This document shows, piece by piece, positions 4,314 to 23,202 of a stretch of 37,813 bases of DNA. Numbering within the stretch: the first letter of the stretch is position 1; every line of letters begins with the position of its first letter. The stretch is from positions 1 to 37,813 of the IMG/VR virus record IMGVR_UViG_3300022181_000109; one strand, 5' to 3'. The notes under the pieces were generated by a model. The model was not told where the DNA came from and made no database searches. It worked only from the letters and a program-made list of their open reading frames with translations. Origin of the DNA: a virus. Lineage: Duplodnaviria; Caudoviricetes. The translations under genes were made by a program, and so were the position numbers.

Positions 4314-4334
4314 GTCTCGCCTTTCCTGGTGGTT

Positions 4335-4363: not shown

Positions 4364-4368
4364 TTGGT

Positions 4369-6906
4369 TTACGGATACGTCTGCCCGTTGCCGCTGACTT
4401 CGACCCAGTCGGTCCCGTCCCAGACCAGCTCTACCCATTCGTTCGCGGTGTCCAGGCGAATCACTTCGGGGTCGCTGGTGACGTGATTGGCGACCGTAAT
4501 GTCGATGTTGTTCCCGGCCACCTTGCAGACGAACTTCACCCGCTGGCCGGTATAGGTTCCGGCAGCCAGAGCCCCGGTGATACCAGCCGAGGCCGAATTG
4601 AAGATCGTCGTGCCGTGGTCGTTGACGTCGGTCACGTCGGCTGAGATCGAATAGACCCGAGACAGGTCGTACATCTCCGGCGGGCCAATCTCGCTGCCGA
4701 CCACAACAGCTTCGGAGTCGATCAAGGCGTAGGCGTCCTGCACATTGTCGAACTCCACCAGTTGGGCGGCAGAAAAGTACGCATCGTCATCCACAGAACC
4801 GCTGTTGAAGATCTTCATGCCAGTGATCGCGGCCGTGTACTTGCCCTCCAAAAGACAGTAGTACCTGCGCCAGTCCGTAGATGTCGGCATGTTCGCGATG
4901 TATGTGGCGTAACCCGTGCCGACGAACATCACAGAGACGTTCATGTCTGCTGCCGACTTGACATCCACGCTAAACAGGTAGAACTTGCCGTCGGTCGTCG
5001 CAACATCAGACCACGCATCGACACCATTGGCCTGGGTCTGGGCAGTTCCAGCGAAGTTGATCTTCATACACTTCGACCAGCCCATCGGGGTGTCGGTAGT
5101 CACGAAAGAGACTGTATTGCTGTTGTCGCTGATCCGACTGAACTCCACGGCACAGGACCCGTTGGCCAGTAGGTTCGTCAGCGTCCAGTTCGCCTTACTG
5201 TTGACGGGGCCGCGCCAGCAGGCTTTGTTCTCGGCGGCAGGTATCATCCTGGCCCGATAGCACAGATCCGGGACCGGCGTGTATGAGGAGGACGTAATCT
5301 GCGGGCGATGATGTTCCACGACACAACTGGCGGCGGTGGTCTTGGACACAGTCCAAACCGACGAGTACAGTCCAACATTTTCCGTATGCAGGACCGCGTT
5401 GGCGTTCAGTAGGCCGCCCCGCATCTCCATATTGCGAAACAATACGTTGGCGCTGTTCAAGTAGAAGTTGTCCGGATCGCTGTAATCATCCCCGTCGATG
5501 GTCACGGACGCGGCGGAACCGTTGGCCTCCAGCCACACATTGTCAAACACGACCACGCGGTTCAGCCAGGTCGAGTCCGCAAACAAGGCGAACCCAAGCC
5601 CGGACTCGATAATGCTGTCCCGCACAATCACCTGCCCCGGCCCCAAAGACCCCGTGTCGCCGTCCAGAACAATAGCCGCCGCCTGGTTCTGGTACGACCT
5701 GCAATCCTGGACCAGCCAGCAGCCACCGTGACTGCTGGCGTTGCTTTCGACGTAGACATCGTGATAACACTGCCAGAATCGGCACCCTATTGCCGTCGTA
5801 TCGATTGCGGCCGCCGTATGCACACCCAATTTGCATTGATAGAAGTCGCAGTTCTCGATGTACACACCGCTGCTGATGTTTCCATTGCCGACATAAATGC
5901 CATTGGCAGTCCTGGTCGATCCGTCGAACCGAATGCCCTCGACCCGGATCGGAACACTCAGCGACGTGGCCGTGATTGACAAAGCGGCCGTGTCCGCCGT
6001 GGACGACTTCCAGACTGTATTGCCGGCACCGGAGCCACGAAAGACCACCAAATACGGCGTCGTCGCCATCGTCACTTCGGCCAGGTACGTACCCGGCGGG
6101 AAGAACACCGTTCCACCTCCGGCAGCAATGGCCGCGTCAATCGCCGCCTGGATCGCCGCCGTATCGTCCGTCACGCCGTCGCCGGTGGCGTTGTAGGGCG
6201 CATCGGTCACGTTGATCACCCCGACCGCCAGCAGGGGCCGGATCGCCGAGGCCCCGCCCATCGCCGTCAGCGAGCCCGACAGGGTCGTCTCGGTCAGGAC
6301 GTTGCCCCAGAACGCCGAGGCCGCGGTGTCGGCCAGGTCGGTCGAGCTCATGCCCCAGGAGTCCCCGTCCCAATAGGGATACCCGGCCGACAGGCTCCAG
6401 CCGTCAGGCAGGCTCATATCCACGACCTCGCGGTCCGTCTCCTGTGCCATCAGCGCCCGCCACGACAGACCCCGCAAATACTGGATCTGCGTCACGATCT
6501 TGTCGACGGCGTCCTCGATCGTCGAGAGCCGCACGTACGTCGAGCCGTCGATGTCGCTGGTCTGGGTCAGAGGCGGCACCCGCGAGATCCAGACCTCGAC
6601 CCCCGAGGCCGGGGCCGCAGTGAACGTGATCGACCCGCCCGGCGTGCCGTCCCACCAGTCCCCATCGGAGTCGTTGTCCGTGGCCGTAAAGTCGGAGTTC
6701 AAGACCTGGACATCCTCGGCCCCCGTGGCGGTCGTCCGGAGCACCACGCGAAGCGTCGAGGTCGAAAAGATCCCGAACGGCACGGTAAAGGTCGCCGTCG
6801 AGCCGTTGCCGTTGTAACTGACGGAATCGACCGTCGAGTTCACCTCGGCCAGAGTAGAGCCACAGAGGGCACAGAGAACACAGAGAAGAGCGAAAATCGT
6901 TTTCAT
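4369..6906 (-). CDS. Tailspike / receptor-binding protein with signal peptide, T7 gp17-like anchor, pectate-lyase-3-type beta-helix and CBM-like C-terminal region
   Basis: SYNGNGSTATFTVPF anchor motif; NVTDAPYNATGDGVTDDTAAIQAAID...GGGTVFFPPGTY beta-helix cap; GAGGA RBS before ATG 6906. Confidence 0.88.
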   Translation of the reverse strand: MKTIFALLCVLCALCGSTLAEVNSTVDSVSYNGNGSTATFTVPFGIFSTSTLRVVLRTTATGAEDVQVLNSDFTATDNDSDGDWWDGTPGGSITFTAAPASGVEVWISRVPPLTQTSDIDGSTYVRLSTIEDAVDKIVTQIQYLRGLSWRALMAQETDREVVDMSLPDGWSLSAGYPYWDGDSWGMSSTDLADTAASAFWGNVLTETTLSGSLTAMGGASAIRPLLAVGVINVTDAPYNATGDGVTDDTAAIQAAIDAAIAAGGGTVFFPPGTYLAEVTMATTPYLVVFRGSGAGNTVWKSSTADTAALSITATSLSVPIRVEGIRFDGSTRTANGIYVGNGNISSGVYIENCDFYQCKLGVHTAAAIDTTAIGCRFWQCYHDVYVESNASSHGGCWLVQDCRSYQNQAAAIVLDGDTGSLGPGQVIVRDSIIESGLGFALFADSTWLNRVVVFDNVWLEANGSAASVTIDGDDYSDPDNFYLNSANVLFRNMEMRGGLLNANAVLHTENVGLYSSVWTVSKTTAASCVVEHHRPQITSSSYTPVPDLCYRARMIPAAENKACWRGPVNSKANWTLTNLLANGSCAVEFSRISDNSNTVSFVTTDTPMGWSKCMKINFAGTAQTQANGVDAWSDVATTDGKFYLFSVDVKSAADMNVSVMFVGTGYATYIANMPTSTDWRRYYCLLEGKYTAAITGMKIFNSGSVDDDAYFSAAQLVEFDNVQDAYALIDSEAVVVGSEIGPPEMYDLSRVYSISADVTDVNDHGTTIFNSASAGITGALAAGTYTGQRVKFVCKVAGNNIDITVANHVTSDPEVIRLDTANEWVELVWDGTDWVEVSGNGQTYP
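6860..6886 (-). repeat. Inverted CTCTGTG cassette encoding the tailspike signal-peptide core LCVLCALCG
   Basis: ccacagagggcacagagaacacagaga on the plus strand. Confidence 0.85.
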
Positions 6907-6917
6907 GGTATCCTCGT

Positions 6918-6940
6918 CAATAAGGTCAATACGGTCAATG
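6918..6940. repeat. 23-bp direct repeat copy 2
   Basis: Identical to 1024-1046; fills the gap between the large ejection gene and the tailspike RBS. Confidence 0.9.
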
Positions 6941-6945
6941 AAGTC

Positions 6946-9900
6946 CTACTCTTGTTTCTTTTCCCCTCTGCGGTACAGGCTCAAATACGCCCGCAGCGTG
7001 TCGCCCTTGGGCATGTTCGCCGGGTCCATCCGGCCCTTGACGCCTTCGGCGATCTCCTTTTCACTGACGACCAGCAGCGGCCGTTTTTGCTCCCGCATCG
7101 CCGCTTCGTGCTCGGCCCGCTCGGCAATCACCTCGCGCATGCCCTCGATGTCTCCGATCTTATGCGCCAAATAAAACCGGTCCACCCACTGCTGCTTGAT
7201 CGCGGCCCGATCGGCCCCGACCCGTTCGGCCAGTTTCTGCTTCTCGTAGGCCCGCGGGATCTGGTCCGGCTGAAAGCCCATCGCCTTGAGCGCCGCATCG
7301 AGCCCGTTCAGGCGGATCTGCTCGAACGTCTCAAAGTCGATCAGCGGCGAGCCCCGCCGGGTCGTATGGCCCTCGGAGTACAGCCGCCAGGCGGCCAGGG
7401 GATTTCGCAGGGCCTCCGGCGAGGCGTCCTCCAGGGCCCGCAGGTACTGGCGGTTCTTGAGGTCCGTCCCGACCCGGTTCAACCGGCCGGGGATGTCCGA
7501 GACCACGCCGCCCATCCAGTCGAGGACCTGCCACTGGAGGTCCTTGTCCGGGTCGAGCTCGGGAACCAGGTCGCTCATGGCGACAGAGCCCGTCAGGGAG
7601 ACGCCCGCCTGGGTCGGGAGCCCCCGCATGAGGATCTCCGCCGGGGTCTTGCCGATCAGGTCGGCCATATCCTCTTCCGGGTCCCTGCCCGTGGCCCCCA
7701 CGTAGATCGCCGTGGCCAGGCCTGCCAGGGGCATCGCCTTGAGTCCACCCGTCAGCGTCCAGGCCAGCATATGCCGCCCGAGGGCCCCCCACTCCCCCGC
7801 CTTGGCCTGGTTCTTCATCCAGGTCAGTTGATTGAGCGTGTAGGAGCGAAAGATCGTCAACGCCGACTTGCCGCCCCTCATCAGGGGCGGGCGGTTGCCC
7901 TTGGCGTAGTGGAAGTGGGCCGTATCGATGATCCCTGCCGCCTCGGCCACGTCCGTCACGCCGGCCCTGTGCAGGGCGACGGCCATACTGGTGCGGTTGA
8001 GCCGCTCCATGTGCCGGAACACGTCGGCAAACGAGGCCGCCTTGCCCACCGGGCCCCAGGCCATCCGGAGAATCGCGTTGCCGCCCCTGGCGGAGATCTC
8101 GCTGGTCATCTTGGCGTCCAGGTAGCCCTGCGACTCCAGGGCCGCGATGAAGTCCCGCTCGGCCTGGGAGGTCCGGCCCGCCGCGGTATCGGCCATGGCG
8201 GTCATCAGCTTGGCCGCGCTCCATCGCGTCCGCTTCGAAAGTTCTGGCCAGCCCATCATCAGGTTGCCGCTGACGTTGACCACGGCGGACTTGATATTGC
8301 CGAAGAGGTACCAGAGGTACATGACGCTCTTGAGTCTGCCCCACTCGAACTGATCGCCCATGACGTACCGGATATACTCGCTGGCGTACCGGTGCAGTCT
8401 CGGCGTCTTCTGCGGATCGATCCCCTCCATCGCCTCGGTGAAGGCCATTGCGGCCTCCATCTTCGTCAAAAACCCGCTGAGGCCCGCGAAGTATTCGGCC
8501 AGCGGCAGGCGGAGATCCGCCGTCCAGCCGGGCGTCTCGGCCCTCTTGATGAAGTGCATCCCGAAGCCCTTGGCCTTATAGAGGTCCTTGAACGCCTGAC
8601 GCATCGCGTCGGCCGTCGAGGGATCGTACGGCTTGCCCGCCTTCTGGGCCTGTTTCTCGGCCTGCTCGGCGATCACGTCCAGCATCTTGTTCACGGCCCA
8701 GGACGGGGCGTCCTGGAACGTCTCGTACTCCATCTTGGTCCGCCGGATGATATCGACTGTCGCGCCGGGGAACATCTTCAAGAGCCGGTCCCGCTCGGTG
8801 AACCGGTCCTTGGTATGGACCGCCGTCATGTACGCCGTTCGAGTCCTGCCGTCCGGGCCCTTCTCTTTGACCACGACAGCCCAGGGTCCGTACCACTTGT
8901 GCGGGATGTAGGACCCGATCCGGGCCTCGAACTCGGCGATCCGTTCCTCGGGCACGCCCAGTTCCCGCATGCGTTCGACCAGTATCCTGGCCGCATCGTC
9001 GAGTCCATCGCGGATCGCCGTATAGGCCGCGTACTGCTGGGGCGTCAGTTGGGCCAGCAGCTTGCCGACAATCTCGCCGCCCGGATACTGCTCCTGCGCG
9101 ATCAGCAGTTCGTCGACCGCCTTTTGTGCCCTGGTGTCCAGATCGAAATACGGCTTGAGCTTCTCGGCGAACGCCCGATCGAGGACCTGCTTGGCCAGTT
9201 CCCTCGCCCTCTGCACGCCGAAGACCGGGGCGAACTGCGGGAACGATCTGGCGATATCGAAGGGAAGCTGCACGTACCGCCAGAATCGAGAGAGGTCCTT
9301 ATTGCTGATCGGCTCGTAGCCGTCGAGACTCTTGATTCCGAATTTGTGCAGCATGCGGCGGATGAAGCCCGCCTCGGCCGGCGTCGGCTCCTGCGCAACC
9401 GCGGCCGGCAGGTCCGCCGCGGGCGGCTGCCCGAAGAACTCCGCCAGGTCCGCCTGCGTGTCGATCGAGTCCTGCTCGCTCTGGATCTCGCGGGCCTCCG
9501 CCTCGGTCCGGGGCCAGTCGACAACTTCGTCGCTCGTCGCCCGTGGCTCGTCGCTCGCGGGCGGGGGGGCACTGGTCGCCGCGCCCTCCGGCCGCTCCTG
9601 ACCGGTCAGTTTGTAGAACCAGTCCCAAGCCTGGATCGCCCTCCATTCTTCCTGGAGGGCTCGATACAGGCCCCTGGGCCCGCTGATCTGCTCGTTTCCG
9701 TACCTGGCCAGCCAGGCGGCTTGTTCCGGGTTTTTGCGATGCTCCGCCAACGCCAGCCCATAGCGTTCGAAGAACTGGGGATACGTCATCGCGCCGGGGT
9801 GCGGTTCCCCCTCGATCATGGGGGCTGGCTCGGGCTTGGCGGTATACGCCTCGATGGCCCCGCCGACAAAGGGAGCGAGATTCTCGCTGGAAGTCCCCGC

Positions 9901-12411
9901 CGTCGAGACCCCCAGGCTTCGGGCCAGTTGTCGCAGTTGCTCCGGATCACCCGGCAGTTTCGCCGCATAGTCCTCGTACGTGAAGTACTGCGGACCCTGG
10001 AAAGGATCCCGCTCAGACGCCGCGGGGGCTTGATCACCCGCGCCTTCGCTGCGCGGGGAGGGGTCAAAAGACTCAAGTGTTTTGCGAAGTTCGGCCTCAT
10101 CAATCAGTTGGCCCGGATCGTCGAGCACAAAGTCGGCGTCGGGCCGATCGTAGTACTCTTGCTTTTCCTGATTGAATCCAGCCCCCATGGGAGCCACATG
10201 ATCGGAAACGCGAACCGTCCTGATTTGCTCGCCGTCAGGGCTCTCGATCTGAACGTACTGACTGCCAAACCCACTATAGCCCCAGTTGACGTGCGTTACC
10301 TTCCACCCCAGAGACTCGGCAACGTCCATCACCCGTTTCGTCGCGGCAGTCTTCGTGTCGGCCATCGCCTTAGACTGCTGATAGTGCTCTTCGGTGGTCC
10401 GTTCAAGTTCCTTTGCGTCTTCGGCCTCGTTGATGGCCTGCTGTTTGTCGTCCTCAATGACCCCCTCGCGCCATTGACGTGTGTTTTCAATCCATTCCTC
10501 GCCGAACATGTCCAGATATAACTGTCCGGAAGGATCAGCCGCCACCACCGTAGCATCATCTGGGTTGTCGGCTCTGTATTGTTGGACTTTCGCGTCGAAT
10601 TTCTCTGCCGCGAGTCTTTGCGATTCCCGTCTGTCGGCAAGAGTCTCGGGAGACTCTTTGGGCTTTCGTGACGCGGCCCGCGCGGCGAGAAAGTCGTCGT
10701 GAAGGCCGAGCCTCTTGGCTTCTTTTTTTGCCCAGGTCTTGGAAATGACATTACGGTTCAGTTTGTCGAGCAGGTCTGCAATCTCAGGCCGAATTGTCCC
10801 TCCAGGCCGCTCTGGGGTTGGAGGCAGTTGTTTCTCGCGGCCCACCCCTTCGGGTTCTGCCATTGCCGCCATTGTACCGGCGGGAGCCGCCTGAGTCAAG
10901 GTTTCGGGCTGGGCGGGCCCTGTGCCAGCAGGTTGCCCGCCCTCATTCGCCGCCGCAGGCGGACCTTGCCCGATGTTTTCTGCCCCCTCCGGACTCTGTG
11001 CCCTCTGTGCCTCTGTGGTGAACCCCCGCGTCGCCGCCCCCGCCGCGGCTTTCGCCGCACCGGGCACGGCCAGGACTGCCGCCTCGACGGCCAGGTTGCC
11101 CGGCTGGAGGTCCTGCGAGAGCCCCGCCCGGATTCGTTCGAGCGGTCCGGCGTCCGGTCCGGCCCCGAAATCCTCCGTCCCGACCAGTCCGTTCAGGATC
11201 GTCGCGACCCGCTCTTCTCCCAGTTCCTCCACAAGCCCATCGTACCCGGCCCGCGTGAAGAACCGCTGCGCGAAGTTCGCCGCGGCCCCCGGCTCCGGAT
11301 GGATTGCCAGGTATGCCTGCCTCATCCCGTCGTAGAGCCGCGATCCGAAGGGAAGCCGCCGGATCTGCGAGGCCCCCAGTTTCGCCAGGGGCTTGAGGAT
11401 CTCCGCCCCGGCGGTCTCGGAGCCCGCCTCGATCGCGACCGAGCCCCAGCCCTTGAGGATGGAGGTCGCCCAGGACTCCGCCGGCGTGGCGATCGAAAGC
11501 TCTCCGTTGGGCCCCACGGCGATATGGTCGATCCTCCGTTCGACAATCTCGTCGCCCACGCGAAGGGGCAGGCCCAGCGTCGCACGCGTAATGGCTCCCC
11601 CGGTCCACCCGGCGCCCGTGAGCAGCGTTCGGCCCGCCGCCGTTTTGGCGTAGCCCTGGAGCGTCTTCAGGACCGCGCCGCGGGCCGCTTCCGACCCGAT
11701 CTGTGCCATCCCCCCGGTCATCGCGAATTCGATCATCCAGGAGGGCAGGTACGAGACCCCGTCGAAGACCTTGGCCCCGAACGTCTGGCCGCGTTCAGCC
11801 AGTTCGATCCGCTCGTGGATGTACTTCTCGATCTTCGCCGCATCCCTGGCCCGCCAGGCGTCTTCGACCGTCTTGAGTCTCTGTGCCCGCTCCTGCGCCG
11901 CAAAGCCCGGCTCCGGATTGACCGCCCGGCCCGAGCCGGGATAGAGCAGGGCCTCCGACATGCGGACCTCTTTCTCCGCCACGTCCGCGTAGGAGTTCGT
12001 CTTGACCCGCTGCGACGCCTCATAGATGTCCACCGCCTCCTGCATCGGCAACGGCGAGAAGGGCACCCTCTTGAGCCACTCGCCCTCCACCATGCGCGAG
12101 ATCTGCTCGCGAAGCCCGATCCGTCTGTCCTGCGGCAGATCCCCCACGTCGCTGGGGTCCGCGACGGTCGTCAGCCGCTTGAGGGTCCGAATCTCGAAGC
12201 CAATCTCCGGCCCGAACGGCTCGACGACGGCCATCGGCTGTCCCGTCTCGACGGCAACGTTCATATCCCGGTCGTACTGCCTGCCTGCATCGAACGTCGA
12301 GGCGGCCGCGTCGATTTGTTGCACCCGCTGCCGGAAGGGATTTCGCCCCGCCGCCGCGGGGGCGGCGGCCTCTTCGGATTCCAGGACGTCACGGAATGGG
12401 TTCTTGGCCAC
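6946..12411 (-). CDS. Large internal virion / ejection (polyvalent-type) protein, 1821 aa
   Basis: Size and position as the third internal virion gene before the tailspike; helical Ala-rich composition. SYIPHKWYGPWAV resembles the PLxRFG-domain motif, and the C-terminal region has hydrophobic helices. Confidence 0.75.
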   Translation of the reverse strand: MAKNPFRDVLESEEAAAPAAAGRNPFRQRVQQIDAAASTFDAGRQYDRDMNVAVETGQPMAVVEPFGPEIGFEIRTLKRLTTVADPSDVGDLPQDRRIGLREQISRMVEGEWLKRVPFSPLPMQEAVDIYEASQRVKTNSYADVAEKEVRMSEALLYPGSGRAVNPEPGFAAQERAQRLKTVEDAWRARDAAKIEKYIHERIELAERGQTFGAKVFDGVSYLPSWMIEFAMTGGMAQIGSEAARGAVLKTLQGYAKTAAGRTLLTGAGWTGGAITRATLGLPLRVGDEIVERRIDHIAVGPNGELSIATPAESWATSILKGWGSVAIEAGSETAGAEILKPLAKLGASQIRRLPFGSRLYDGMRQAYLAIHPEPGAAANFAQRFFTRAGYDGLVEELGEERVATILNGLVGTEDFGAGPDAGPLERIRAGLSQDLQPGNLAVEAAVLAVPGAAKAAAGAATRGFTTEAQRAQSPEGAENIGQGPPAAANEGGQPAGTGPAQPETLTQAAPAGTMAAMAEPEGVGREKQLPPTPERPGGTIRPEIADLLDKLNRNVISKTWAKKEAKRLGLHDDFLAARAASRKPKESPETLADRRESQRLAAEKFDAKVQQYRADNPDDATVVAADPSGQLYLDMFGEEWIENTRQWREGVIEDDKQQAINEAEDAKELERTTEEHYQQSKAMADTKTAATKRVMDVAESLGWKVTHVNWGYSGFGSQYVQIESPDGEQIRTVRVSDHVAPMGAGFNQEKQEYYDRPDADFVLDDPGQLIDEAELRKTLESFDPSPRSEGAGDQAPAASERDPFQGPQYFTYEDYAAKLPGDPEQLRQLARSLGVSTAGTSSENLAPFVGGAIEAYTAKPEPAPMIEGEPHPGAMTYPQFFERYGLALAEHRKNPEQAAWLARYGNEQISGPRGLYRALQEEWRAIQAWDWFYKLTGQERPEGAATSAPPPASDEPRATSDEVVDWPRTEAEAREIQSEQDSIDTQADLAEFFGQPPAADLPAAVAQEPTPAEAGFIRRMLHKFGIKSLDGYEPISNKDLSRFWRYVQLPFDIARSFPQFAPVFGVQRARELAKQVLDRAFAEKLKPYFDLDTRAQKAVDELLIAQEQYPGGEIVGKLLAQLTPQQYAAYTAIRDGLDDAARILVERMRELGVPEERIAEFEARIGSYIPHKWYGPWAVVVKEKGPDGRTRTAYMTAVHTKDRFTERDRLLKMFPGATVDIIRRTKMEYETFQDAPSWAVNKMLDVIAEQAEKQAQKAGKPYDPSTADAMRQAFKDLYKAKGFGMHFIKRAETPGWTADLRLPLAEYFAGLSGFLTKMEAAMAFTEAMEGIDPQKTPRLHRYASEYIRYVMGDQFEWGRLKSVMYLWYLFGNIKSAVVNVSGNLMMGWPELSKRTRWSAAKLMTAMADTAAGRTSQAERDFIAALESQGYLDAKMTSEISARGGNAILRMAWGPVGKAASFADVFRHMERLNRTSMAVALHRAGVTDVAEAAGIIDTAHFHYAKGNRPPLMRGGKSALTIFRSYTLNQLTWMKNQAKAGEWGALGRHMLAWTLTGGLKAMPLAGLATAIYVGATGRDPEEDMADLIGKTPAEILMRGLPTQAGVSLTGSVAMSDLVPELDPDKDLQWQVLDWMGGVVSDIPGRLNRVGTDLKNRQYLRALEDASPEALRNPLAAWRLYSEGHTTRRGSPLIDFETFEQIRLNGLDAALKAMGFQPDQIPRAYEKQKLAERVGADRAAIKQQWVDRFYLAHKIGDIEGMREVIAERAEHEAAMREQKRPLLVVSEKEIAEGVKGRMDPANMPKGDTLRAYLSLYRRGEKKQE
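9527..9557 (+). repeat. Heptamer array YCGTSGC x4
   Basis: tcgtcgc tcgtcgc ccgtggc tcgtcgc; encodes ASDEPRATSDE. Confidence 0.7.
10994..11023 (+). repeat. CTCTGTG cassette copy inside the ejection gene
   Basis: ctctgtgccctctgtgcctctgtggtgaac; encodes FTTEAQRAQS in frame. Confidence 0.9.
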
Positions 12412-14024: not shown

Positions 14025-14034
14025 AGACTCACTC

Positions 14035-14466: not shown

Positions 14467-14645
14467 CGAACCTCCACAATCGCCAGAATCGCCCGAACGG
14501 TCATCGGCAGGGGCTCGGCCTGTACGATCGTCACGGCCGCGGAGTCCGTTTGTCCCCATCATCGAACCTCCACAATCGCCACAATCGCCCGAACGGTCAT
14601 CGGCAGGGGCTCGGCCTGTACGATCGTCACGGCCGCGGAGTCCGT
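14454..14645. repeat. 96-bp tandem duplication (14454-14549 and 14550-14645) with one mismatch
   Basis: The copies differ only at 14486 (G) versus 14582 (C). Confidence 0.95.
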
Positions 14646-16919
14646 GGCGAAAGATCTGCTCAGGCTACAGTCCTTGTCCCCGGTGAACAAAGCCGCCGCG
14701 CCGCCGGTCAGGACACCGAACGCGCCGCGGGACCAGTCGAGAGACTGCGCCAGGGCCGCCGTGGGCCCGACCTTGGCGCCGAGGGTCTGGTAGAAACTCA
14801 CGGTGACCTGCCCGACCGCCTTGCGGCGGTGCCACGTAGCGCCCTGCTGGCCGGGCAGGTCATATCGGACCGTCGTCAGGGTCGAAGTGTACGGCAGCCC
14901 GACAGCAACCACCGAGGCCGCATCGTCCAGCGTCACGCTCCCGCCGGAGATGGTCCTGTCGTCGTCGGCCGCCCCGTCGGCGCAGATCGCGACCGTTTCG
15001 CCCTCCAGGTGACCGAGCCCGCTGAACGTCGTCGCCGCCGCCGCATCGTAGCTCAGTCCGCAATCGACGAAGTACACGTCGTTTTGATCCGTTCCAAAAT
15101 CCCACGGAGCAAGATACTCGACGTACCGCACGGTGGACCCGTCCACGGTTCGTCGCACGGACAGCCACAGTTCGTCCTCGGTCGCGCCCGGCACGGTGCA
15201 GATCGATTCGACCACGCCGGAGCCGCCGAGCGCGTGTCGGCTCCAGGAGACTGTCTGGAAGTTCCTGTCGTACGTGCAACTGGCCAGGCCGCCGTCGGCC
15301 CGGGCGCACCAGAGGATCGGGTACGGCTGATTGGCCCAGGCCATCTCCGAGACGCCCGAGCCGGTGATATGCTCACTGAACAGCGTCAGATCGGGAGCCA
15401 CCAGGGAATCGGCGTCGTAGCTGTAGAGCACCTCGCGGACCTTCTCGCCGCCCCGCTGGAGCACCAGGAGGATATTGTCGGCCACCACGGGCGCGACGTC
15501 GGCCGAGGCAATGGCCAGGGTATTGCTGATCGTCGGCGGATTGGACGGCCGGATGCCCGCGGCATTGTCCGCCGGCTCGATCTCCAGGACGCTGCCGGTC
15601 GTGCCCGCGATCAGGCCCCGGCGCCGCTGGGCGGTCAGCCAGAGGATCGGGTCCTGCTGGGCCCGGCCCAGCGTGTACCCGAAGGAATCCGCGTCGTCGC
15701 CGGCGGCCGCGTCGAAGCTCTCGTACTCGGCCGTGGCGGAAAACCAGATCGTCAAGGGCTGATGCGTCGTGGAGGCCAGGACCAGGCGGTCGGAATACGA
15801 GGCGATCGCGCGGGGGTACCCGCGTACGCCCGACCAGGCCCCCTCGCTCCACCGGACCGTCGCATCGGTCGAGGCCAGATCGCGGACCACGTCGCAGACG
15901 GCATGGCAGGGGTCCGAGACGGCCGTCAGCCGCACCACTCCGGTATGCATGTACGCATGCACCCAGAGCCGCACGCTGGCAGAACCGCTCGTGTCGGCCG
16001 TGCAGAACGCCCGGACCTGCACGTCCTGCCCGGTATCGTTGTCGTAGACCTCGTCGGTCGTCGAGGCGATGCTCGTGGAGATCATCGTCGCGTAGGCCGT
16101 CCAAGTCGAGCCCTCGTCGTAACTGATCTGAAGATCGATCGTACCGACAAACGAGCCTGAGACCGACCACTGAAAGTTTCCACCCGACTGACAGGTCAAG
16201 GCCGTCGTGGCGTCGTTGACGTCGTCAAACGTCGCCGAAACCGTCTGTATCCCGACCAGGTCCCGGATCTTCCAGTACGAACCCACGTGCCCAGCCGACC
16301 ACAAGGCCGCAGTCGAGACGAGATTGACGTCCGTGCCCGTCGTGGCGGAGGCGGCGAGGGTCGTGGCCGTCAGGTTCTCCGTGAGGAATGGCCCGTCCTC
16401 GATCTCGGCGTCGGCGATCGACCAGTCGTTCGGATCGGTCTGAACCAGTTTTTGGGGCCAGTCGCTCCCGCTGACGATGTACGCCGTGTCCGCCGACTGC
16501 CACCATTGCAGGCGGCCGATCTCGTTGGCGTCGAACGGCGTGGCCAGCTCGTAGATCGAGTCATCGTCATTGAGCACCAGGCCGTGCTCGCGATAGACCC
16601 GCATCAGATTGTCTGTGAACTCCAGCACGTACACATCGTCGCTGGAATACCGAAACCCCATCAGCCTCGCGACGTTGTTGGAATCGGTGGCCGCTACGAA
16701 CCGGGTCCCCGGCCGCCGGACGGCCGGGCCCTGCGGCACGGCGATCAGGTTTTCCATGGTCGCGGCGCTGGTCCAATACCGTTCCGCGTCCACGCGGGCC
16801 ACCGCCAGGGGCGACAGCTCCCCGCCGGTAAAGTTCGACTGCATGACCGGCAGCGTCTGGGCCAGAACCGCCGATGCGATCCAGAGGAAGACCATGCACC
16901 CAAGCCTCATCGTGTTCAT
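14559..16919 (-). CDS. Tail nozzle / tail tubular protein B (T7 gp12-like) with N-terminal signal peptide
   Basis: Motifs QSNFTGGELSP, PQGPAVRRPGT, GYPRAI, GLGHLEGETV, VGLPYTS and QAEPLPMTV. ATG 16919 overlaps the adaptor stop (ATGA) and has a GGAGG RBS. Confidence 0.92.
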   Translation of the reverse strand: MNTMRLGCMVFLWIASAVLAQTLPVMQSNFTGGELSPLAVARVDAERYWTSAATMENLIAVPQGPAVRRPGTRFVAATDSNNVARLMGFRYSSDDVYVLEFTDNLMRVYREHGLVLNDDDSIYELATPFDANEIGRLQWWQSADTAYIVSGSDWPQKLVQTDPNDWSIADAEIEDGPFLTENLTATTLAASATTGTDVNLVSTAALWSAGHVGSYWKIRDLVGIQTVSATFDDVNDATTALTCQSGGNFQWSVSGSFVGTIDLQISYDEGSTWTAYATMISTSIASTTDEVYDNDTGQDVQVRAFCTADTSGSASVRLWVHAYMHTGVVRLTAVSDPCHAVCDVVRDLASTDATVRWSEGAWSGVRGYPRAIASYSDRLVLASTTHQPLTIWFSATAEYESFDAAAGDDADSFGYTLGRAQQDPILWLTAQRRRGLIAGTTGSVLEIEPADNAAGIRPSNPPTISNTLAIASADVAPVVADNILLVLQRGGEKVREVLYSYDADSLVAPDLTLFSEHITGSGVSEMAWANQPYPILWCARADGGLASCTYDRNFQTVSWSRHALGGSGVVESICTVPGATEDELWLSVRRTVDGSTVRYVEYLAPWDFGTDQNDVYFVDCGLSYDAAAATTFSGLGHLEGETVAICADGAADDDRTISGGSVTLDDAASVVAVGLPYTSTLTTVRYDLPGQQGATWHRRKAVGQVTVSFYQTLGAKVGPTAALAQSLDWSRGAFGVLTGGAAALFTGDKDCSLSRSFATDSAAVTIVQAEPLPMTVRAIVAIVEVR

Positions 16920-17608
16920 AATCGCGCATTCCTCCACGTATCGCTGACGATGCCCGGCGCCGACTGCTCCATGGCATCGGCCATCCTCGCCTGAGGCAGG
17001 GAGATCCGCTCATGCCACTGGACCAACGCGTCGGCAATGGCGACGGCGCCCTCCCCGCAGAGGGCCGGGGCCAGGTACGCCGCCAGACGTTTGACGAGCG
17101 CCTCCACGAAAAGGTCGTCATAGAGATCCGTGTCGAGCGTGTACCGGATATACTCGATCTGGACGCTCGTGGCGTCGGTCTGGACATGGCGACCGACCTT
17201 GGTATATTCCACGTTGCTCAGCAGCCGCAGCCCGCCGATATAATCCGAGGGCAGCGAGTACGCATAGGCGAACCCGGCCGCCGGCGCCGTCGTGAGATTG
17301 CCCGAGATGTCCGCCTGGGCGGCCAGGCACTTCCAGTCGTGGCCTCGCGCCGCCGCGCGAAAGGCGAGTTCAAAATACAGAGCACACATGCGGGCCTCGT
17401 GCGGCACGTTGTCGCTCTGGCCGAAGTCCAGCGCCCCGATCTGCCGAGTAATTCCGCACTGCCCGAGCGCCATGTTGCAGATTCGCACCAAGCTGTATCC
17501 CATATCCAATGCCTCAAAAACGTCCTGGGTGTCCGGTTCGTCGGCCTCCAGCCAGATCTGGCCCGGCCGGCGGTATAAGGGATCGGCATACGCGGGTCGT
17601 AGGGGCAC
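16916..17608 (-). CDS. Tail adaptor / tail tubular protein A (T7 gp11-like); alternative start 17503
   Basis: ICNMALG, H.WK, FAYAYSLPSDY and DDLFVEAL...LA..LA motifs; located directly before the nozzle. Confidence 0.88.
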   Translation of the reverse strand: MPLRPAYADPLYRRPGQIWLEADEPDTQDVFEALDMGYSLVRICNMALGQCGITRQIGALDFGQSDNVPHEARMCALYFELAFRAAARGHDWKCLAAQADISGNLTTAPAAGFAYAYSLPSDYIGGLRLLSNVEYTKVGRHVQTDATSVQIEYIRYTLDTDLYDDLFVEALVKRLAAYLAPALCGEGAVAIADALVQWHERISLPQARMADAMEQSAPGIVSDTWRNARL

Positions 17609-17616
17609 GTCTCACC

Positions 17617-18849
17617 TCACGGACTGACGATCGTTCCCGTAGTCGTCCGGTTCCCGTAGGGCAGCGTCGACGTCAAACTCATGACCACCGTCGCCCCGTC
17701 CTGGCGGTAATACGTGTACGTTCTCGTCTCGTCGCCCACACTGACCGTCACGCGGCCGACCAGATCCGCGATCTGGGCCTCGATCAGCGAGTTCATCGTA
17801 ATCCCGTCGATTTCTTCCGCCAGCCAGGCCGCCACCACGGCGGCGGGCAATCCGCTCTGGATCGCGGCGATCGCCGTGGCGTTGGGAGCCCCGACCAGAT
17901 CCATCGCATCCCCGGCCTGCGCCGCGGTTTTGGCATGGTCGTAATCCGATGTCAAGATCACCGGGTCCGACGCCGGGTTCCAATAGGCGAGCAACAGGGC
18001 GTTGAACTCCTCCTCGGTCATGGCGTCTTCGCCGAGCGAGACCTGTTCGACAGCGTTCGCCGTGAACCGATAGACCGCCCCGTCGAGCTCCACCGCCGTG
18101 TCGAGTTTGTCCGTGACCGCCTTGACCGCCGCCACTTCGGTGTCCACGTACCCGGCGACCGTGCTCAATGCCGAAGCCGTGGCCAGCCCGCTCTGAATTG
18201 CGGCAACGGCTGTGGCGTTCGGAGCGTTGACGAAATCCATCTGGCTCCCGACCGCTGCGGGGGAGGCCGGGAGATTATCCGTTTTGGCCTTGATTGCGGC
18301 GACTTCGGTATCGACGTATCCTTTCACGGTGGCGATGTCCGCACTGACGCTGGCACCAGCCGGGGCCCCGAGCCGGGCAAAAGCATCGCCGGTCATGTCC
18401 GGCGCGGTCGATCCCTTCCACTGCGCCACGTTGGCCGACACATTCGTCGCCGAGACAGACCTCGCATCCACTTCAGCCTGGATCTGGAACGTGTGCACAG
18501 CCACCCCAGCGATGCTGTCCACCGTGGCCTTGACCACTACGACGTAGTTCTTGCCCTTCTCGAACCCGGCGGCTGTGGTCAGTTGCCGCCTCACGTAGTA
18601 GCAGCCGGTGATGGCGTCAAATGGGGAGCCCACCGTAATGGCCACGTCCTCGTCGATGCCCGTTGTGGAGCCGTCCTCGTAGATCGAATACGTCAGGGCC
18701 GACGGCGCGTAGGCCGCGCCCGTGGAGAACCGATGCGTCGTGGCCGGGATTCCGACGTAATCGTCGATTCTCCACGAGCCCAGATACTCGGCAGCCGCGG
18801 GGACGGACAGCCCCAAGGCAAGGACGGCGGCCCAACATGTTTTCGACAT
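17617..18849 (-). CDS. Signal-peptide-bearing virion-associated protein with Ala/Thr-rich internal repeats
   Basis: AAGGAG RBS; MSKTCWAAVLALGLSVPAAA|E; repeats GYVDTEVAA.KA.TD.L (x2) and MD.V.APNATA.AAIQSGL (x2). Confidence 0.8.
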   Translation of the reverse strand: MSKTCWAAVLALGLSVPAAAEYLGSWRIDDYVGIPATTHRFSTGAAYAPSALTYSIYEDGSTTGIDEDVAITVGSPFDAITGCYYVRRQLTTAAGFEKGKNYVVVVKATVDSIAGVAVHTFQIQAEVDARSVSATNVSANVAQWKGSTAPDMTGDAFARLGAPAGASVSADIATVKGYVDTEVAAIKAKTDNLPASPAAVGSQMDFVNAPNATAVAAIQSGLATASALSTVAGYVDTEVAAVKAVTDKLDTAVELDGAVYRFTANAVEQVSLGEDAMTEEEFNALLLAYWNPASDPVILTSDYDHAKTAAQAGDAMDLVGAPNATAIAAIQSGLPAAVVAAWLAEEIDGITMNSLIEAQIADLVGRVTVSVGDETRTYTYYRQDGATVVMSLTSTLPYGNRTTTGTIVSP

Positions 18850-18860
18850 AATGAATCTCC

Positions 18861-19889
18861 TTATCTGACCACCGACCCGCCTAATACGGACCGCATGAAC
18901 CCTGTGGTTTGTTCTTCGAAATACTCATCCGCCCCGACATCCCACGTCCCGCCCTGGGGACGGGCCTGACCATCGATGTCGATGGAGATGTAGGTAGACG
19001 CCGTAGATGAACCCTGCCCGATCAGTCCGCTGCCGGAAACCAGATGCAGGTTCTCGCTACCCTTGGTCACATTCCCGAAGCAACTTGTATCGAAGGCCAC
19101 CTGCGACGTGGATTGGCTCGCATCGGCGGAATAGCAGTTGGTCAGGGAGAGCGTGCCGCCCTTGCCCCAATCTGCCGTACTGTTGCCCCCGGCATAGCAG
19201 TTGATCGCAGTAAGAGTCTGGAAGCTGCCAGCGTAAAAGCCGTAGGTTCCATTGTTGACGGATGTGCAGTTGACGAACAGTCCGCTGTTGGAAGTGTTCG
19301 TTTGCGCTCCGGGGCCGGACGAGCCGTAGAACAGGCAGTTCATGGCGCGGCTGCTGCTGCTTAACAGAAGCCCGTAGAGTTCACCCCCACGGATAATACA
19401 CTCCTTCAGATAGACAATCCCGCCGGTGTTCACGCAGCGGCTTCCGGTTCCGCTGGTGTTGTGGATCTGCATCCCTTCCAGGACCGTGTAATTGGGAAGG
19501 GTATCCACAAGTTCGTCGTTGCCGACGCTGGCGACGAGGCGGTATTTGCTCGTGGACCAGACACCCGCGTGACGGTCCTCGGAATCCACTTTGATCCACA
19601 GGTAATAGGTTGCGTTCGTGGTGTAGCCCGATGTGGCCAGGCGGGTCGTGTCCGCGTTGGTCGAACCTCGGACATTGATTCGGACGATCTTCGTAGCCGT
19701 AACAAGGTCTGCGGCTTTGGCGTCCACAGCGGCGTCCACGCTGGAGTAGGCGTTAGCCCAATCGCGTCCGTCCGCATCGCCGCCGGAGACGTCCGTATCG
19801 ACATACCAATCGTCGATACTTTGGCCCCACGCAGGCCAGGTTAGCAGAACCAATAGAATGCAGATCGCCAGTCTCTTCATGTCACTCAC
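18861..19889 (-). CDS. Secreted right-handed beta-helix (pectin-lyase-like) protein with choice-of-anchor-Q-like end
   Basis: MKRLAICILLVLLTWPAWG|Q; YVD...DGRDWANAY cap; NC stacks; DIDGQARPQGGTWDVGADEY. Confidence 0.85.
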   Translation of the reverse strand: MSDMKRLAICILLVLLTWPAWGQSIDDWYVDTDVSGGDADGRDWANAYSSVDAAVDAKAADLVTATKIVRINVRGSTNADTTRLATSGYTTNATYYLWIKVDSEDRHAGVWSTSKYRLVASVGNDELVDTLPNYTVLEGMQIHNTSGTGSRCVNTGGIVYLKECIIRGGELYGLLLSSSSRAMNCLFYGSSGPGAQTNTSNSGLFVNCTSVNNGTYGFYAGSFQTLTAINCYAGGNSTADWGKGGTLSLTNCYSADASQSTSQVAFDTSCFGNVTKGSENLHLVSGSGLIGQGSSTASTYISIDIDGQARPQGGTWDVGADEYFEEQTTGFMRSVLGGSVVR

Positions 19890-22800
19890 TCTTCTTCAGC
19901 CCGATCTTTTTGGAGGCCGGAGCCGCCCGAGTCGTGAAGCTCCACTCGTCGCCGGTAATTTCCTGGTCGCCGTCGTCGAGTTCGTCCACTCGCCAGTAAT
20001 AGGTCGTGCTGTATTCAGTCACAGGCGTAAAGGTCAGCAGCGTCTGCGGACCTGCCGCCAGACTCAGATTCTCACTGACGGTCCCGAAGTAGACTTTATG
20101 TCGCGTCGCATGTTGTCCCGGCGTCCAGGATAAGACCTGCCCGAGAGCCACGCCCGTAGCGTCATCTGCCGGGGTTGGCGTTGTCGCCTTCGTCACCGTC
20201 GGGGCGGGGTCGTATTCGTATGTGGGTGGATAGACCCACTTGTTGCTCAGGATCACGCCCTTGGCGTACCCGGAAGTGTAGTTGCCCCAGTTGCCAGATC
20301 CCACGTTCGTGCGGCACCAATCGAAGTATTCGAAGAATTGCGGGCTGTTCCAAGAAGTCACAGCCGGAAAGCCTCCGTTCTGGTGCATAATCACAGGACA
20401 CACGGCAAACCCGATCATGCTCGATGTCACGATCCCATGATATCCACCATACAGATACGTTGGGTTTGAGATTGCCCACTGCCACGAATACGGCGGATTA
20501 GCTGCCAGCGGATTTTCGCACCAGTACGACACGCCTTCCCAGCTTTCGTCAAACTCATGGTAGTCGGCATAATCACTAACTTTATACTGCCGCCCTAAGT
20601 ACAGATGATTCCCGATAATGAACGAAACGCCGGTTGCGGTGTTGCCCTGATAGGGCGAGGTCAGCGTCAGCGTCGGCGTGCCGGACGTGGACGCCGATTG
20701 AATCGTGTACGCCACGGCCGTCGTGCTGTACCCGCGAACCTCGTCGAGGACTCGCAGAGTACCGAAAATAGTCTGCGTCGTGATGAACCGATCCCCCGCG
20801 ACCGCGCCACCCCAGGTTTCGCCCGCCTCTCCAATCACCGTAGAGGAGTTCTGAGTCACACTCACCGTGCCGGTGTTGTCCCTGAGCGTAGGATAAGCCC
20901 GCACCCTATACGGCTGGCTGTCCCAGAAGGTGTCCCCGCTGCCCAGGAAGTTGCTCGTGATGCGGAAGGTTTGTGCATTCTCGTCGAACTGGAACCCGTT
21001 CGGCAAATTCCAGTTGTCGTCTATGTCCTGGTTGGTGGCCAGCCCGAAGTTGACCATCTCGGCGTCGTCCAGCACGATCCCCGCGAACAGGATCGGCCAG
21101 TATCGACCGTGCGTGTTCCCGCCGGACGCCTTCCACCACAGCGATTGACCCTGTTTGCACACCGCCCACAGGTCCAGCCCCCTCTGAATGCAGCCGATCA
21201 GCAGCCGGCGCTTCTGCTCCAGCGTCCCGATGTCGCTATCGAACAGTGCGAGATACGCATCACCGTTTTCTTTCGCCCAATTGCCCGCGTACAATTCCGA
21301 GGCATCCCAGGCATGACACCGCGATCCAGCGTCCACCGTGGCAAGCTCCATAGTTGGTCTGGTGACGATTCGCTCTAGCGACGTGAACGACTCTGTTTTG
21401 AGCGACCTCGTCTCGCCTGCGCTACTGAGCAACTGCCTCGTGCCCCCCAGTGCAACTTGCGGAATGCGGGCCGTCACGACATCCGACCACTGGTACTCCA
21501 CCGCTCGGCCGGTGTACGCTCGATACGGCGGTCGAAACCACGTATTGTTCGCCAGTGCCGTTTCAACCACAGTCAACACGGACACAGACCGCATGGAATA
21601 GCGAAACTCGACTTTGGGTTCGGGGTCGGTCGCGTAGTCCATCGAGTAGCAGTTCAGAACCGACGACGGGAACGTGTCCACCATGAACGGCAACTCGTCG
21701 CCCCGGTTGGCCGCCGCGGAGAACGCCGAGGCAACCCAGCCGGACGCAACCTGTGCGTCCAGACCCGAACCAGTCCCCGTCGGATTGACCATCATGCCGT
21801 TTATCACCCGGCCCACGGCCCCGCCGTCCGGGAACGCGCTGGCACTGTAGCCGAACGGCGGATCGTATGAAACGATGACCGTCTTGCCGACGGTGGCATA
21901 CGACCCGTCGATAAAGCGAAACACCCGCCGATAGTCCTGGAACGTGCGGGTAATCGCAAACTCCGTCAACGTCTTTGTGTAGTAGGCTCTGTCTGGCCAT
22001 TCGACGTACGGATTCGGATGGGCGCTTTCGTAGGGATAGAAGATCGTCGCGTCCGGACTGATGAGAATGATCGCGGCATCGGACTCAGTGTCACCAATTC
22101 CACTCCAGCCCATCGCAGTAGCAGGAGTCGCTCCATTCCCTGTGCCGCCTGGCGTCACGAAGTACGTGTGGTCCGGGAAGTTGAAGGTGGAAAACTGCTG
22201 AATCGCCCCAGCCGTGGTTCCGCCAGCCGTGGTCGCGTCCACGCGGACGTAGTATGTCGAGTTTTCATCCAAGGCTTCCGTGTCGCAGTAGAGCACGCTG
22301 ATCGCATCCCCAATCTTCGTGCCTGGCGGACTGGTCTTGCCGATGTAGACGTCGAACGTCTGCTCCTGCGTCGCATCGGCCGGAGTCTTGGTCCACATGA
22401 TCCGGGTCTGATAGTTGACCGTGTCCCCGGTCTTAGGCCAGACCATCGTGACTGCAAAAGGAGCCGTATCGCCCCGGTCAATCGGATGGTCGGGACCGTC
22501 GAGGCTGGTCGTGCTGGTGTCGGAGACCGTCAGATTGTCCGTCTCGACGCTGTAGTCGTCGAACAGCGGCAGGTTCCAATCCGGAGCCCCGCCCGTTGCG
22601 GCACCCGGCAAACCCCCGGCGTCCAGAGCCGCACGTTCTGCACTCGACAACTCCCGCTTCCAGAAGGCGACTTCCGCGAGCTTGCCATTGAACGTAGAGC
22701 CACCGAGGACCAAGTTTGCTGCCACATTCAGGGCCTGCGTGTACGTGCTCGCAGACGTGTACGCGAGAATCTCCGATCCGCCCTGCTTGTACGAGTAGAG

Positions 22801-23202
22801 ACGAATCTTCAGATCATCGCCGCGACTCATCGTCACGCGGCACCAGCCGGTTTCGTTTCCGGTGTACGCTTTCTTGTCATCGACGTGGGGGGTTCCGTTC
22901 GTTGGGAAGTGGCCGTACAGGCAACTGGGCGGCCAGGTTCCGCTGCCCTGAATCGCCAGACGCAGGGCTGCATCGCCCGAATCCGTCCCGGCACGCCACA
23001 AAAAGAGATTCCGCCAACTCGTTGACGCCCCGCCCGGCTTGACCCACATCGACAGCGTCCACGCCTCGGACGACCCGATGGACAGGACCGCGTCGTCCGT
23101 GATCGTAATCGTGCCGCCGTTCATGGCGACCGAGGCGAAAGCCGCAGGGACCACCACGGAGGCACAGAGGACACAGAGAAGAATCGTTCGGGTGATCGTC
23201 AT
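19882..23202 (-). CDS. Secreted multidomain protein (LamG-like, Fn3-like, unknown helical domain with an inserted tail-fibre-like module, Fn3-like)
   Basis: Signal peptide; WTLSMWVK...FNGKLAEVAFW (LamG); DVYIG...TYYVRVD and KVYFGT...TYYWRVDE...WSFTT modules; GTVSVTQNSSTVIG...LTLTSPYQG module; ATGA coupling to the glycosyltransferase gene. Confidence 0.8.
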   Translation of the reverse strand: MTITRTILLCVLCASVVVPAAFASVAMNGGTITITDDAVLSIGSSEAWTLSMWVKPGGASTSWRNLFLWRAGTDSGDAALRLAIQGSGTWPPSCLYGHFPTNGTPHVDDKKAYTGNETGWCRVTMSRGDDLKIRLYSYKQGGSEILAYTSASTYTQALNVAANLVLGGSTFNGKLAEVAFWKRELSSAERAALDAGGLPGAATGGAPDWNLPLFDDYSVETDNLTVSDTSTTSLDGPDHPIDRGDTAPFAVTMVWPKTGDTVNYQTRIMWTKTPADATQEQTFDVYIGKTSPPGTKIGDAISVLYCDTEALDENSTYYVRVDATTAGGTTAGAIQQFSTFNFPDHTYFVTPGGTGNGATPATAMGWSGIGDTESDAAIILISPDATIFYPYESAHPNPYVEWPDRAYYTKTLTEFAITRTFQDYRRVFRFIDGSYATVGKTVIVSYDPPFGYSASAFPDGGAVGRVINGMMVNPTGTGSGLDAQVASGWVASAFSAAANRGDELPFMVDTFPSSVLNCYSMDYATDPEPKVEFRYSMRSVSVLTVVETALANNTWFRPPYRAYTGRAVEYQWSDVVTARIPQVALGGTRQLLSSAGETRSLKTESFTSLERIVTRPTMELATVDAGSRCHAWDASELYAGNWAKENGDAYLALFDSDIGTLEQKRRLLIGCIQRGLDLWAVCKQGQSLWWKASGGNTHGRYWPILFAGIVLDDAEMVNFGLATNQDIDDNWNLPNGFQFDENAQTFRITSNFLGSGDTFWDSQPYRVRAYPTLRDNTGTVSVTQNSSTVIGEAGETWGGAVAGDRFITTQTIFGTLRVLDEVRGYSTTAVAYTIQSASTSGTPTLTLTSPYQGNTATGVSFIIGNHLYLGRQYKVSDYADYHEFDESWEGVSYWCENPLAANPPYSWQWAISNPTYLYGGYHGIVTSSMIGFAVCPVIMHQNGGFPAVTSWNSPQFFEYFDWCRTNVGSGNWGNYTSGYAKGVILSNKWVYPPTYEYDPAPTVTKATTPTPADDATGVALGQVLSWTPGQHATRHKVYFGTVSENLSLAAGPQTLLTFTPVTEYSTTYYWRVDELDDGDQEITGDEWSFTTRAAPASKKIGLKKSE
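23152..23178 (-). repeat. Inverted CTCTGTG cassette encoding the signal-peptide core LCVLCASVV
   Basis: caccacggaggcacagaggacacagag on the plus strand. Confidence 0.85.

What the first reader, a model, noticed from the sequence alone, without database searches (positions are those of the whole stretch)
6847..23202. Two signal peptides are built from an inverted dispersed DNA repeat
Seen: five full copies of the CTCTGTG cassette (2271, 4335, 10994, 31736, 34187) lie so the mRNA reads CACAGAG, giving polar peptides such as TTETQRTQR. The only two full copies in the opposite orientation (6860-6886 and 23152-23178) lie in signal-peptide h-regions, where they encode LCVLCALCG and LCVLCASVV. Inference: a spreading micro-repeat was co-opted as a ready-made hydrophobic core, a route to de novo export signals on phage proteins.
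Basis: partly seen in the sequence, partly recalled or inferred. Interest (0 to 1): 0.8.

Follow-up and report, generated by a model that had tools for sequence, protein, structure and literature searches.

The report
Micro-repeat rewrites phage export signals
In this prophage a 27-base repeat that normally sits between bacterial genes encodes the greasy core of two predicted export signals, but related proteins carry such signals without it, so the repeat most likely replaced the core of older signals rather than creating new ones.

Summary
In detail: seven cassettes, far above chance, and both CTCTGTG-reading copies encode 9 residues of predicted signal-peptide cores (tail fibre 4369-6906; 1106-aa protein 19882-23202). 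Two of the five 'polar' copies are probably untranslated. De novo signal birth is not supported. Homologues of the 1106-aa protein (83-89% identical) have cassette-free signals with the same cleavage region. All 14 fibres of the closest clade have signals, four without the cassette, some built from other 7/9-mer repeats. Three more late genes have cassette-free signals. The window is a temperate short-tailed prophage of a Sedimentisphaerales host. The cassette is a lone arm of a widespread intergenic inverted repeat that sometimes brackets GxxExxY genes; its CTCTGTG arm normally faces the next start codon. Two unrelated families (a Terriglobales protein, another phage tail protein) show the same patchy replacement of signal cores. 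Best reading: repeated overwriting of a tolerant, older signal core. Export is untested. A printed precedent exists (a Yersinia MITE in a predicted signal). This scan noted repeat-encoded signal cores, the GxxExxY arms and signals on phage tail proteins before, on other DNA.

The parts
6859..6885 (-). Cassette, 9+9 form, encoding LCVLCALCG in the predicted h-region of the tail fibre
6847..6906 (-). Predicted Sec signal peptide of the fibre (20 aa, predicted cleavage TLA|EVNS)
   Evidence: sequence; the phage tail N-terminal domain match starts at residue 22 (phrog_1640)
4369..6906 (-). Tail fibre/spike gene, 845 aa: phage tail N-terminal domain plus pectate-lyase-like beta-helix
23152..23178 (-). 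Cassette, 9+8 form, encoding LCVLCASVV in the predicted h-region of the 1106-aa protein
23134..23202 (-). Predicted Sec signal peptide of the 1106-aa protein (23 aa, predicted cleavage AFA|SVAM); cleavage region shared with cassette-free homologues
19882..23202 (-). 1106-aa LamG-domain protein; its last ~100 aa match a module with 120 hits in the host relative G498
2271..2297 (+). Cassette (degenerate), mRNA reads CACAGAG; probably 5' untranslated region of the DNA methyltransferase, overlapping its GTG start
4335..4361 (+). Cassette, intergenic, 7 nt after the fibre stop codon
10994..11020 (+). Cassette in a low-complexity linker of the 1821-aa probable internal virion protein (TTEAQRAQ)
31736..31762 (+). 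Cassette encoding the C-terminus of the probable small terminase; the relative L370 has a copy at the same place
34187..34213 (+). Cassette in a 195-codon frame (TTETQRTQR); by eye L006 shares the upstream flank without it
6915..6940 (-). A different 9-mer array between the stop of the 1821-aa gene and the fibre start; second copy at 1020-1046 near the integrase start
14559..16919 (-). Tail tubular protein B (nozzle, phrog_376) with a cassette-free predicted signal peptide
17617..18849 (-). 410-aa late protein with a cassette-free predicted signal peptide
18861..19880 (-). Beta-helix late protein with a cassette-free predicted signal peptide

Best explanation
The cassette is a lone arm of a widespread intergenic inverted repeat, and in two genes of this prophage it has likely replaced the hydrophobic core of predicted export signals that were already there. 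Shown: the arm is almost always intergenic in bacteria; full elements read CACAGAG arm first and CTCTGTG arm last, so the CTCTGTG arm sits just ahead of start codons and the CACAGAG arm just after stops; relatives of both genes have signals without it. Inferred: arms land at gene junctions, which in a compact phage often means the first or last codons of a gene. The polar reading is tolerated in linkers and C-termini. The Leu/Cys/Val reading is tolerated almost only in a signal core, where any 9 uncharged hydrophobic residues do the job, so it persists there and is later overwritten by other 7/9-mer arms or decays. The signals themselves likely send the fibre, nozzle and neighbouring late proteins through Sec; that is a lineage-wide trait older than the cassette and is untested. 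How the arm moves is unknown; a GxxExxY nuclease carried by some full elements is the candidate.
For: (1) P0137 and P0138, 89% and 83% identical over residues 1-400 of the 1106-aa protein, begin MMHRIRIYLILIFL and keep the PA(A/V)FA|SVAM cleavage region. (2) Fibre tree, 50 of 99 rows: a 14-row clade (SH-aLRT 100) has signals throughout; 10 have cassette-type cores, 4 do not; P0010 and L007 lie outside the 12-row group that holds all cassette types. L007's core is a different 9-mer array; L003, L004 and L006 carry 7-mer arrays in the n-region. (3) Three more late genes have cassette-free signals; 43 of 150 nozzle representatives were flagged as signal-bearing by my heuristic. (4) Intergenic: 112 of 118 sites in 80 loci across phyla and 140 of 148 in 117 host-genus loci. 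Arm order 82/126 versus 7/132. A host pair folds at z -12.8; the three phage sites tested do not. (5) GxxExxY genes lie between arms (TIGR04256): 8 genes in 117 host-genus loci. (6) Terriglobales family: 53 orthologues at 40-85% identity all show signal-like leaders; near-full cassette in 6 (6 changes on the tree), word arrays in 14, neither in 33. (7) Second phage family: of 30 loci, 19 have a signal without repeat words and 7 with them, scattered over the tree.
Against: The DNA of P0001-P0009 and P0137/P0138 was not seen, so their cores are classed by peptide only, and the direction of change at the 1106-aa gene rests on two homologues with no outgroup. The trees are quick, short (120-300 columns) and midpoint-rooted; L003 and L004 nest among cassette-type fibres, so loss of the cassette is as possible there as gain elsewhere. 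In the Terriglobales family 75 of the 120 closest proteins keep a cassette-like peptide, which also fits long vertical conservation of one co-option. All five other copies in the window share one orientation, a stronger bias than the near-even split between co-directional host genes (33 versus 40). Two of seven copies in signal cores is a little more than target size predicts (P about 0.06 on a rough model). Signals were judged by eye and by a home-made hydrophobicity rule, genes by a home-made caller; no SignalP, no export or expression data. The window holds no GxxExxY gene and no paired arms.
Confidence: 0.72

Rival explanations
1. De novo birth: insertion of the cassette gave signal-less phage proteins their first export signal.
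For: Most distant fibres (79 of 99 rows) and about 105 of 150 nozzle representatives have no signal, so signals were gained or lost somewhere. The cassette supplies 9 of about 12-13 core residues. Nine of the ten closest fibre homologues have cassette-type cores. A MITE-derived predicted signal is in print (PMC2229807, passages).
Against: Cassette-free signals in 83-89% homologues, in the fibre clade and in more distant fibres, and on the nozzle down to about 33% identity. The one case that first looked de novo (L487/L466 versus signal-less L637) fell when 19 of 30 family members proved to have cassette-free signals.
Confidence: 0.08
2. Directed, selected turnover: an element-linked process (GxxExxY nuclease with repair from other arms, or gene conversion) keeps rewriting signal cores, and the variation tunes export of tail proteins.
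For: Near-perfect cassettes in orthologues only 55-70% identical: L586 versus L612 share 8 of 9 cassette codons against 45% in the mature part. Different arm families occupy the same leader in close relatives. Core matches are about 30 times denser in this prophage (7 in 37.8 kb) than in the closest host relative (37 in 6.3 Mb); a second phage-like contig has 8 in 41.7 kb.
Against: The 'full' class was defined by likeness to the cassette, and 2 of its 6 members were found by the pattern, so the codon figures are partly circular. Arms are just as common at junctions of genes with no signal. No GxxExxY gene in the window or in 80 viral loci. Nothing shows a fitness effect.
Confidence: 0.14
3. 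Local slippage: pyrimidine-rich codons of an ordinary signal core duplicated in place and came to resemble the dispersed repeat.
For: The 6859 copy is a plain three-unit 9-mer array, and P0009 has a longer run of the same peptide unit.
Against: The 23152 copy matches the irregular 9+8 pattern with its non-periodic end at 1 mismatch in 25; the 9+9 form matches a common host arm (49 sites).
Confidence: 0.06

Closest known systems
Bacterial MITEs fused into genes: Yersinia YPAL/RU-2 forming part of the predicted signal peptide of YPO1552; ERIC/RU-1; Rickettsia palindromic elements (PMC2229807, four passages read)
   Same: A dispersed intergenic inverted-repeat element read in frame; its hydrophobic translation contributes to a predicted signal peptide.
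   Different: Those units are 100-170 bp and were proposed to create new proteins; here a 27-nt lone arm occupies the core of a signal that relatives have without it, in several unrelated families and in phage tail genes.
Neisseria opa CTCTT coding repeats in the leader peptide (PMC3960869, passages)
   Same: A pyrimidine-rich repeat encodes part of an export signal.
   Different: Opa units are 5 nt and switch the frame by slippage; here units are 9 nt (or 9+8), in frame, and belong to a dispersed family.
Heptamer repeats of Xanthomonas and Nostoc (PMC4692102, abstract and section 13 read); cyanobacterial STRR/SDR repeats (recalled; paper not held)
   Same: Short degenerate tandem arrays, mostly intergenic, with the purine-rich strand just after stop codons and its complement just before start codons.
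   Different: Different words and period; no link to signal peptides in the parts I read.
Inverted word-array arms around GxxExxY genes (TIGR04256); earlier notes of this scan, not found in print
   Same: Same words and arm order; GxxExxY genes between arms in L079, L188 and L205.
   Different: The window has only lone arms and no GxxExxY gene.
T7-type podovirus tail: tubular protein B/nozzle (phrog_376) and gp17-type fibre N-terminus (phrog_1640; PF03906 in homologues)
   Same: Gene order and profile matches.
   Different: Nozzle and fibre carry predicted Sec signals; in T7 the tail is built in the cytoplasm (my knowledge).

Membership tests
Sec/SPase I signal peptide | Basic n-region, uncharged hydrophobic core, small residues at -3/-1, no lipobox | tested here: met
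   Both N-termini by eye and by heuristic (core scores 3.3 and 3.0, net +1; TLA|E and AFA|S); fibre domain match starts right after the site
Sec/SPase I signal peptide | Cleavage and export in a cell | not testable with these tools
   No SignalP, proteomics or reporter data
De novo signal gained from a repeat | Relatives lacking the repeat lack the signal | tested here: not met
GxxExxY-associated inverted arm element | Arm sequence identical in kind to host arms | tested here: met
GxxExxY-associated inverted arm element | Paired inverted arms forming a hairpin, with or without the nuclease gene | tested here: not met
   Met in hosts but not in the window: nearest opposite copies are over 2 kb apart, three sites give z above 0, no GxxExxY gene
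MITE | Target-site duplication and mobilisation by a transposase in trans | not tested
   No clean filled/empty site pair was obtained at DNA level
Opa-type phase-variable coding repeat | Unit length not a multiple of three, with copy-number variation shifting the frame | tested here: not met
   Both signal copies span 27 nt in frame; no frame-shifting variation was seen for these two genes
Temperate T7-type short-tailed phage | Portal, capsid, tubular A/B, internal virion proteins, fibre; integrase and attachment site | tested here: met
   bases 1-16906 identical inside the 655-kb contig L002, next to tRNA-Pro and feoB

The most novel reading that the evidence does not exclude
A tiny selfish arm element, spread by a GxxExxY nuclease system, keeps rewriting the cores of export signals across bacteria and phages, and here supplies the working signal of a phage tail fibre that is exported and joined to the head outside the cytoplasm.
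Probability: 0.2. Interest if true: 0.78.

Novelty: new variant of a known kind. Interest (0 to 1): 0.42.

Why it matters
It shows how little a signal core needs: short intergenic repeats of several families can be swapped in without losing the signal, in four unrelated gene families, which gives natural leader series for export tests. It corrects the stronger claim of de novo targeting. The larger open question sits beside the finding: why nozzle and fibre proteins of these short-tailed phages carry export signals at all. I found no paper on that, though this scan has noted it on other genomes.

Tried and rejected
De novo origin in the L466/L487 family: raised by signal-less L637, rejected after 30 family loci (two of the four 'none' rows have a signal-like leader out of frame). 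Hairpin sequestering the start codon at the two signal sites: z 0.63 and 0.99. Lipoprotein signals: no lipobox at the cysteines (sequence). Fibre relatives in named genomes: none in genome contigs; in 24 host-genus genomes the alignment hit almost only the beta-helix part. DNA of P0137: not in viral contigs, so the 5' DNA of cassette-free relatives of the 1106-aa gene remains unseen. Laying four runs on 4200-24000 was too wide to show bases at the cassettes; one relative contig covers 6377-6889 without gaps. Runs with small shares were not used for habitat or expression. The order-level search around G003 hit a lineage whose nozzles show no signal at their starts. The host contig itself could not be searched, so cassette density in the true host is unknown; G498 (FeoB 83% identical) stands in. 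In 101 genomes of the wider host family a 20-nt pattern matched only 14. Paper searches that gave nothing relevant.
Full report
What the window is. Profile scans give integrase, methyltransferase, terminase, portal, capsid, tail tubular proteins A and B, internal virion proteins and a fibre, nearly all on the minus strand: a T7-type short-tailed temperate phage. Bases 1-16906 are identical to part of a 655-kb metagenome contig, where the integrase end abuts tRNA-Pro and then host mntR and feoB. Named members of the MntR cluster are Sedimentisphaerales. The closest genome I reached is G498 (FeoB 83% identical).

The observation. Seven cassettes are present. Six match the 9+8-spaced pattern with 0-2 mismatches, none expected by chance in 100 shuffles; the fibre copy is a 9+9 form, and both forms are common host arms (47 and 49 sites in 117 loci). 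The two copies that read CTCTGTG in the mRNA encode codons 8-16 of the fibre and 9-17 of the 1106-aa protein, within leaders that have a basic start, an uncharged core and small residues at -3/-1. Of the five opposite copies, 4335 is intergenic and 2271 is probably untranslated; 10994, 31736 and probably 34187 are coding.

What the repeat is. An exact 29-nt pattern returned 121 stretches from a partial scan of species genomes (about 1600 estimated), in Planctomycetota, Acidobacteriota, deltaproteobacteria, Chloroflexota, cyanobacteria, gammaproteobacteria and one archaeon. With a home-made gene caller, 112 of 118 sites in the 80 loci with long flanks, and 140 of 148 sites in 117 loci drawn mainly from the host genus, are intergenic. 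They are arms of inverted pairs: 82 of 126 CTCTGTG arms have a CACAGAG arm within 250 nt upstream, 7 of 132 downstream, and one host pair folds at z -12.8. So the CACAGAG arm follows stop codons (median 20 nt in the host set) and the CTCTGTG arm precedes starts (median 48 nt). The same polarity is published for heptamer repeats of Xanthomonas and Nostoc (PMC4692102, section 13). Some pairs enclose GxxExxY genes: 8 genes in 117 host loci, 1 in 80 cross-phylum loci, none in 80 viral loci or the window. The window holds lone arms only, about 30 times denser than G498 (7 core matches in 37.8 kb versus 37 in 6.3 Mb), along with other 6-10-mer arrays (12 versus 0-1 in 20 shuffles).

Did the repeat make the signals? 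For the 1106-aa protein, the only two other homologues found (89% and 83% over residues 1-400) have a different leader with a full hydrophobic core and the same cleavage region; its C-terminal module has 120 matches in G498, pointing to a host protein family. For the fibre, nine of the ten closest proteins have cassette-type cores (peptide only) and one does not. Four related phage loci seen as DNA have signals without the cassette: L007's core is a different 9-mer array, and L003, L004 and L006 carry 7-mer arrays near the start. On a quick tree of the domain after the signal (50 of 99 rows: all 20 signal-bearing, 30 of 79 without), a 14-row clade has signals throughout, and two cassette-free members lie outside the group that holds all cassette types; six more distant fibres have cassette-free signals. 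The nozzle and two further late genes of the window have cassette-free signals. Signals occur on 43 of 150 nozzle representatives by heuristic, with two more by eye, and on nozzles of three Sedimentisphaerales prophage contigs at about 33% identity, while six others show none. Head, portal, adaptor and internal proteins of the window have none. The signals are therefore a lineage trait, not a product of the cassette.

Does it generalise? In 80 viral loci, 78 of 91 sites are non-coding and 12 of 13 coding ones read CACAGAG, in linkers or C-termini. Of 107 start-plus-cassette pairs in 119 viral loci, only two long called genes had the cassette in the LCVLC frame, both with signal-type leaders. 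In their family, 19 of 30 loci have a signal without repeat words, 7 have words (in two different frames), 2 have an out-of-frame leader and 2 none; the word-bearing rows need 6 changes on the tree. In a Terriglobales protein family, 75 of the 120 closest proteins keep a cassette-like peptide. Among 53 orthologues seen as DNA (55 loci, two from unpublished genomes left out), all show signal-like leaders by eye, 6 carry at least 25 of 29 cassette bases and are scattered over the tree, 14 carry word arrays and 33 neither. Cassette codons are more alike than mature codons (8 of 9 versus 45% for L586 and L612), but the class was defined by likeness to the cassette, so this is partly circular.

Mechanism. 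Shown: arm identity, arm order, intergenic preference, signals in cassette-free relatives. Inferred: arms arrive at gene junctions; the CTCTGTG arm faces the start, so slipping a few codons inward puts it in a leader; only a signal core tolerates its Leu/Cys/Val reading, while the polar reading is tolerated in linkers and tails. Inferred from established knowledge of Sec signals: the core needs hydrophobicity, not sequence, so the swap is near-neutral. Unknown: how arms move, and whether the proteins are exported. Against this reading: no DNA for the closest protein homologues, weakly rooted trees, a one-sided orientation in the window (5 of 5) against 33 to 40 in host operons, and a mild excess of copies in signal cores (rough P 0.06).

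Prior knowledge. A Yersinia MITE forming part of a predicted signal peptide is described in PMC2229807 (four passages); Neisseria opa repeats lie in the leader (PMC3960869, passages); gain and loss of bacterial signals by N-terminal exchange is described in PMC5952966 (abstract only). Nine searches (listings only unless named above) found nothing on this cassette, on GxxExxY arms or on signals on podovirus nozzles; the library lacks most subscription journals, and I opened no supplements. The STRR/SDR names and T7 assembly are recalled. Earlier notes of this scan describe repeat-encoded signal cores, GxxExxY arms and signal-bearing phage tails on other genomes; I reached the three readings before seeing them, and they gave me two papers to check.

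Verdict. Real sequence feature, partly right reading: co-option yes, de novo no. New variant of a known kind; interest 0.42.

Noticed in passing
window 14559-16919, 4369-6906, 17617-23202: Nozzle, fibre and three neighbouring late proteins carry predicted Sec signals while capsid, portal, adaptor and internal proteins do not; 43 of 150 nozzle representatives share the trait, hinting at tail parts made outside the cytoplasm.
   Followed up: partly
window 2271-2297: The degenerate cassette supplies the first base of the methyltransferase's likely GTG start and a GAAGG Shine-Dalgarno-like word made by changes from the consensus.
   Followed up: partly
window 1020-1046, 6915-6940, 32173-32242, 32690-33029, 34908-34933, 37363-37389: Other 6-10-mer tandem arrays (12 found versus 0-1 in shuffles); one encodes TLTVLTLL near the integrase start.
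   Followed up: partly
window 14449-14640: Two near-identical 96-nt direct repeats spanning the end of the nozzle gene and the start of the internal virion gene; possible duplication or assembly artefact.
   Followed up: no
L268-L270 (G708:C806): A second, phage-like 41.7-kb contig in the host genus (judged from translations only) has 8 cassette cores, mostly at gene junctions: prophages of this genus may collect these arms.
   Followed up: partly
L340:1500 and 1917: One 561-aa viral protein carries the cassette twice in frame as polar insertions.
   Followed up: no
L734 and L741, just upstream of 1201: Signal-like leaders out of frame with the mature tail protein: sequencing error or phase switching.
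   Followed up: no
L185:1524-3329: A gene at the portal position of a Sedimentisphaerales prophage contig begins with a signal-like stretch.
   Followed up: no
L205:1559-2033; L188; L275: GxxExxY gene bracketed by arms at what looks like the same site in several host-genus genomes, once with an extra cargo gene between the arms (L188).
   Followed up: partly
window 19885-20226: The C-terminal ~100-aa module of the 1106-aa protein has 120 matches in one host relative yet no Pfam or NCBIfam name.
   Followed up: partly
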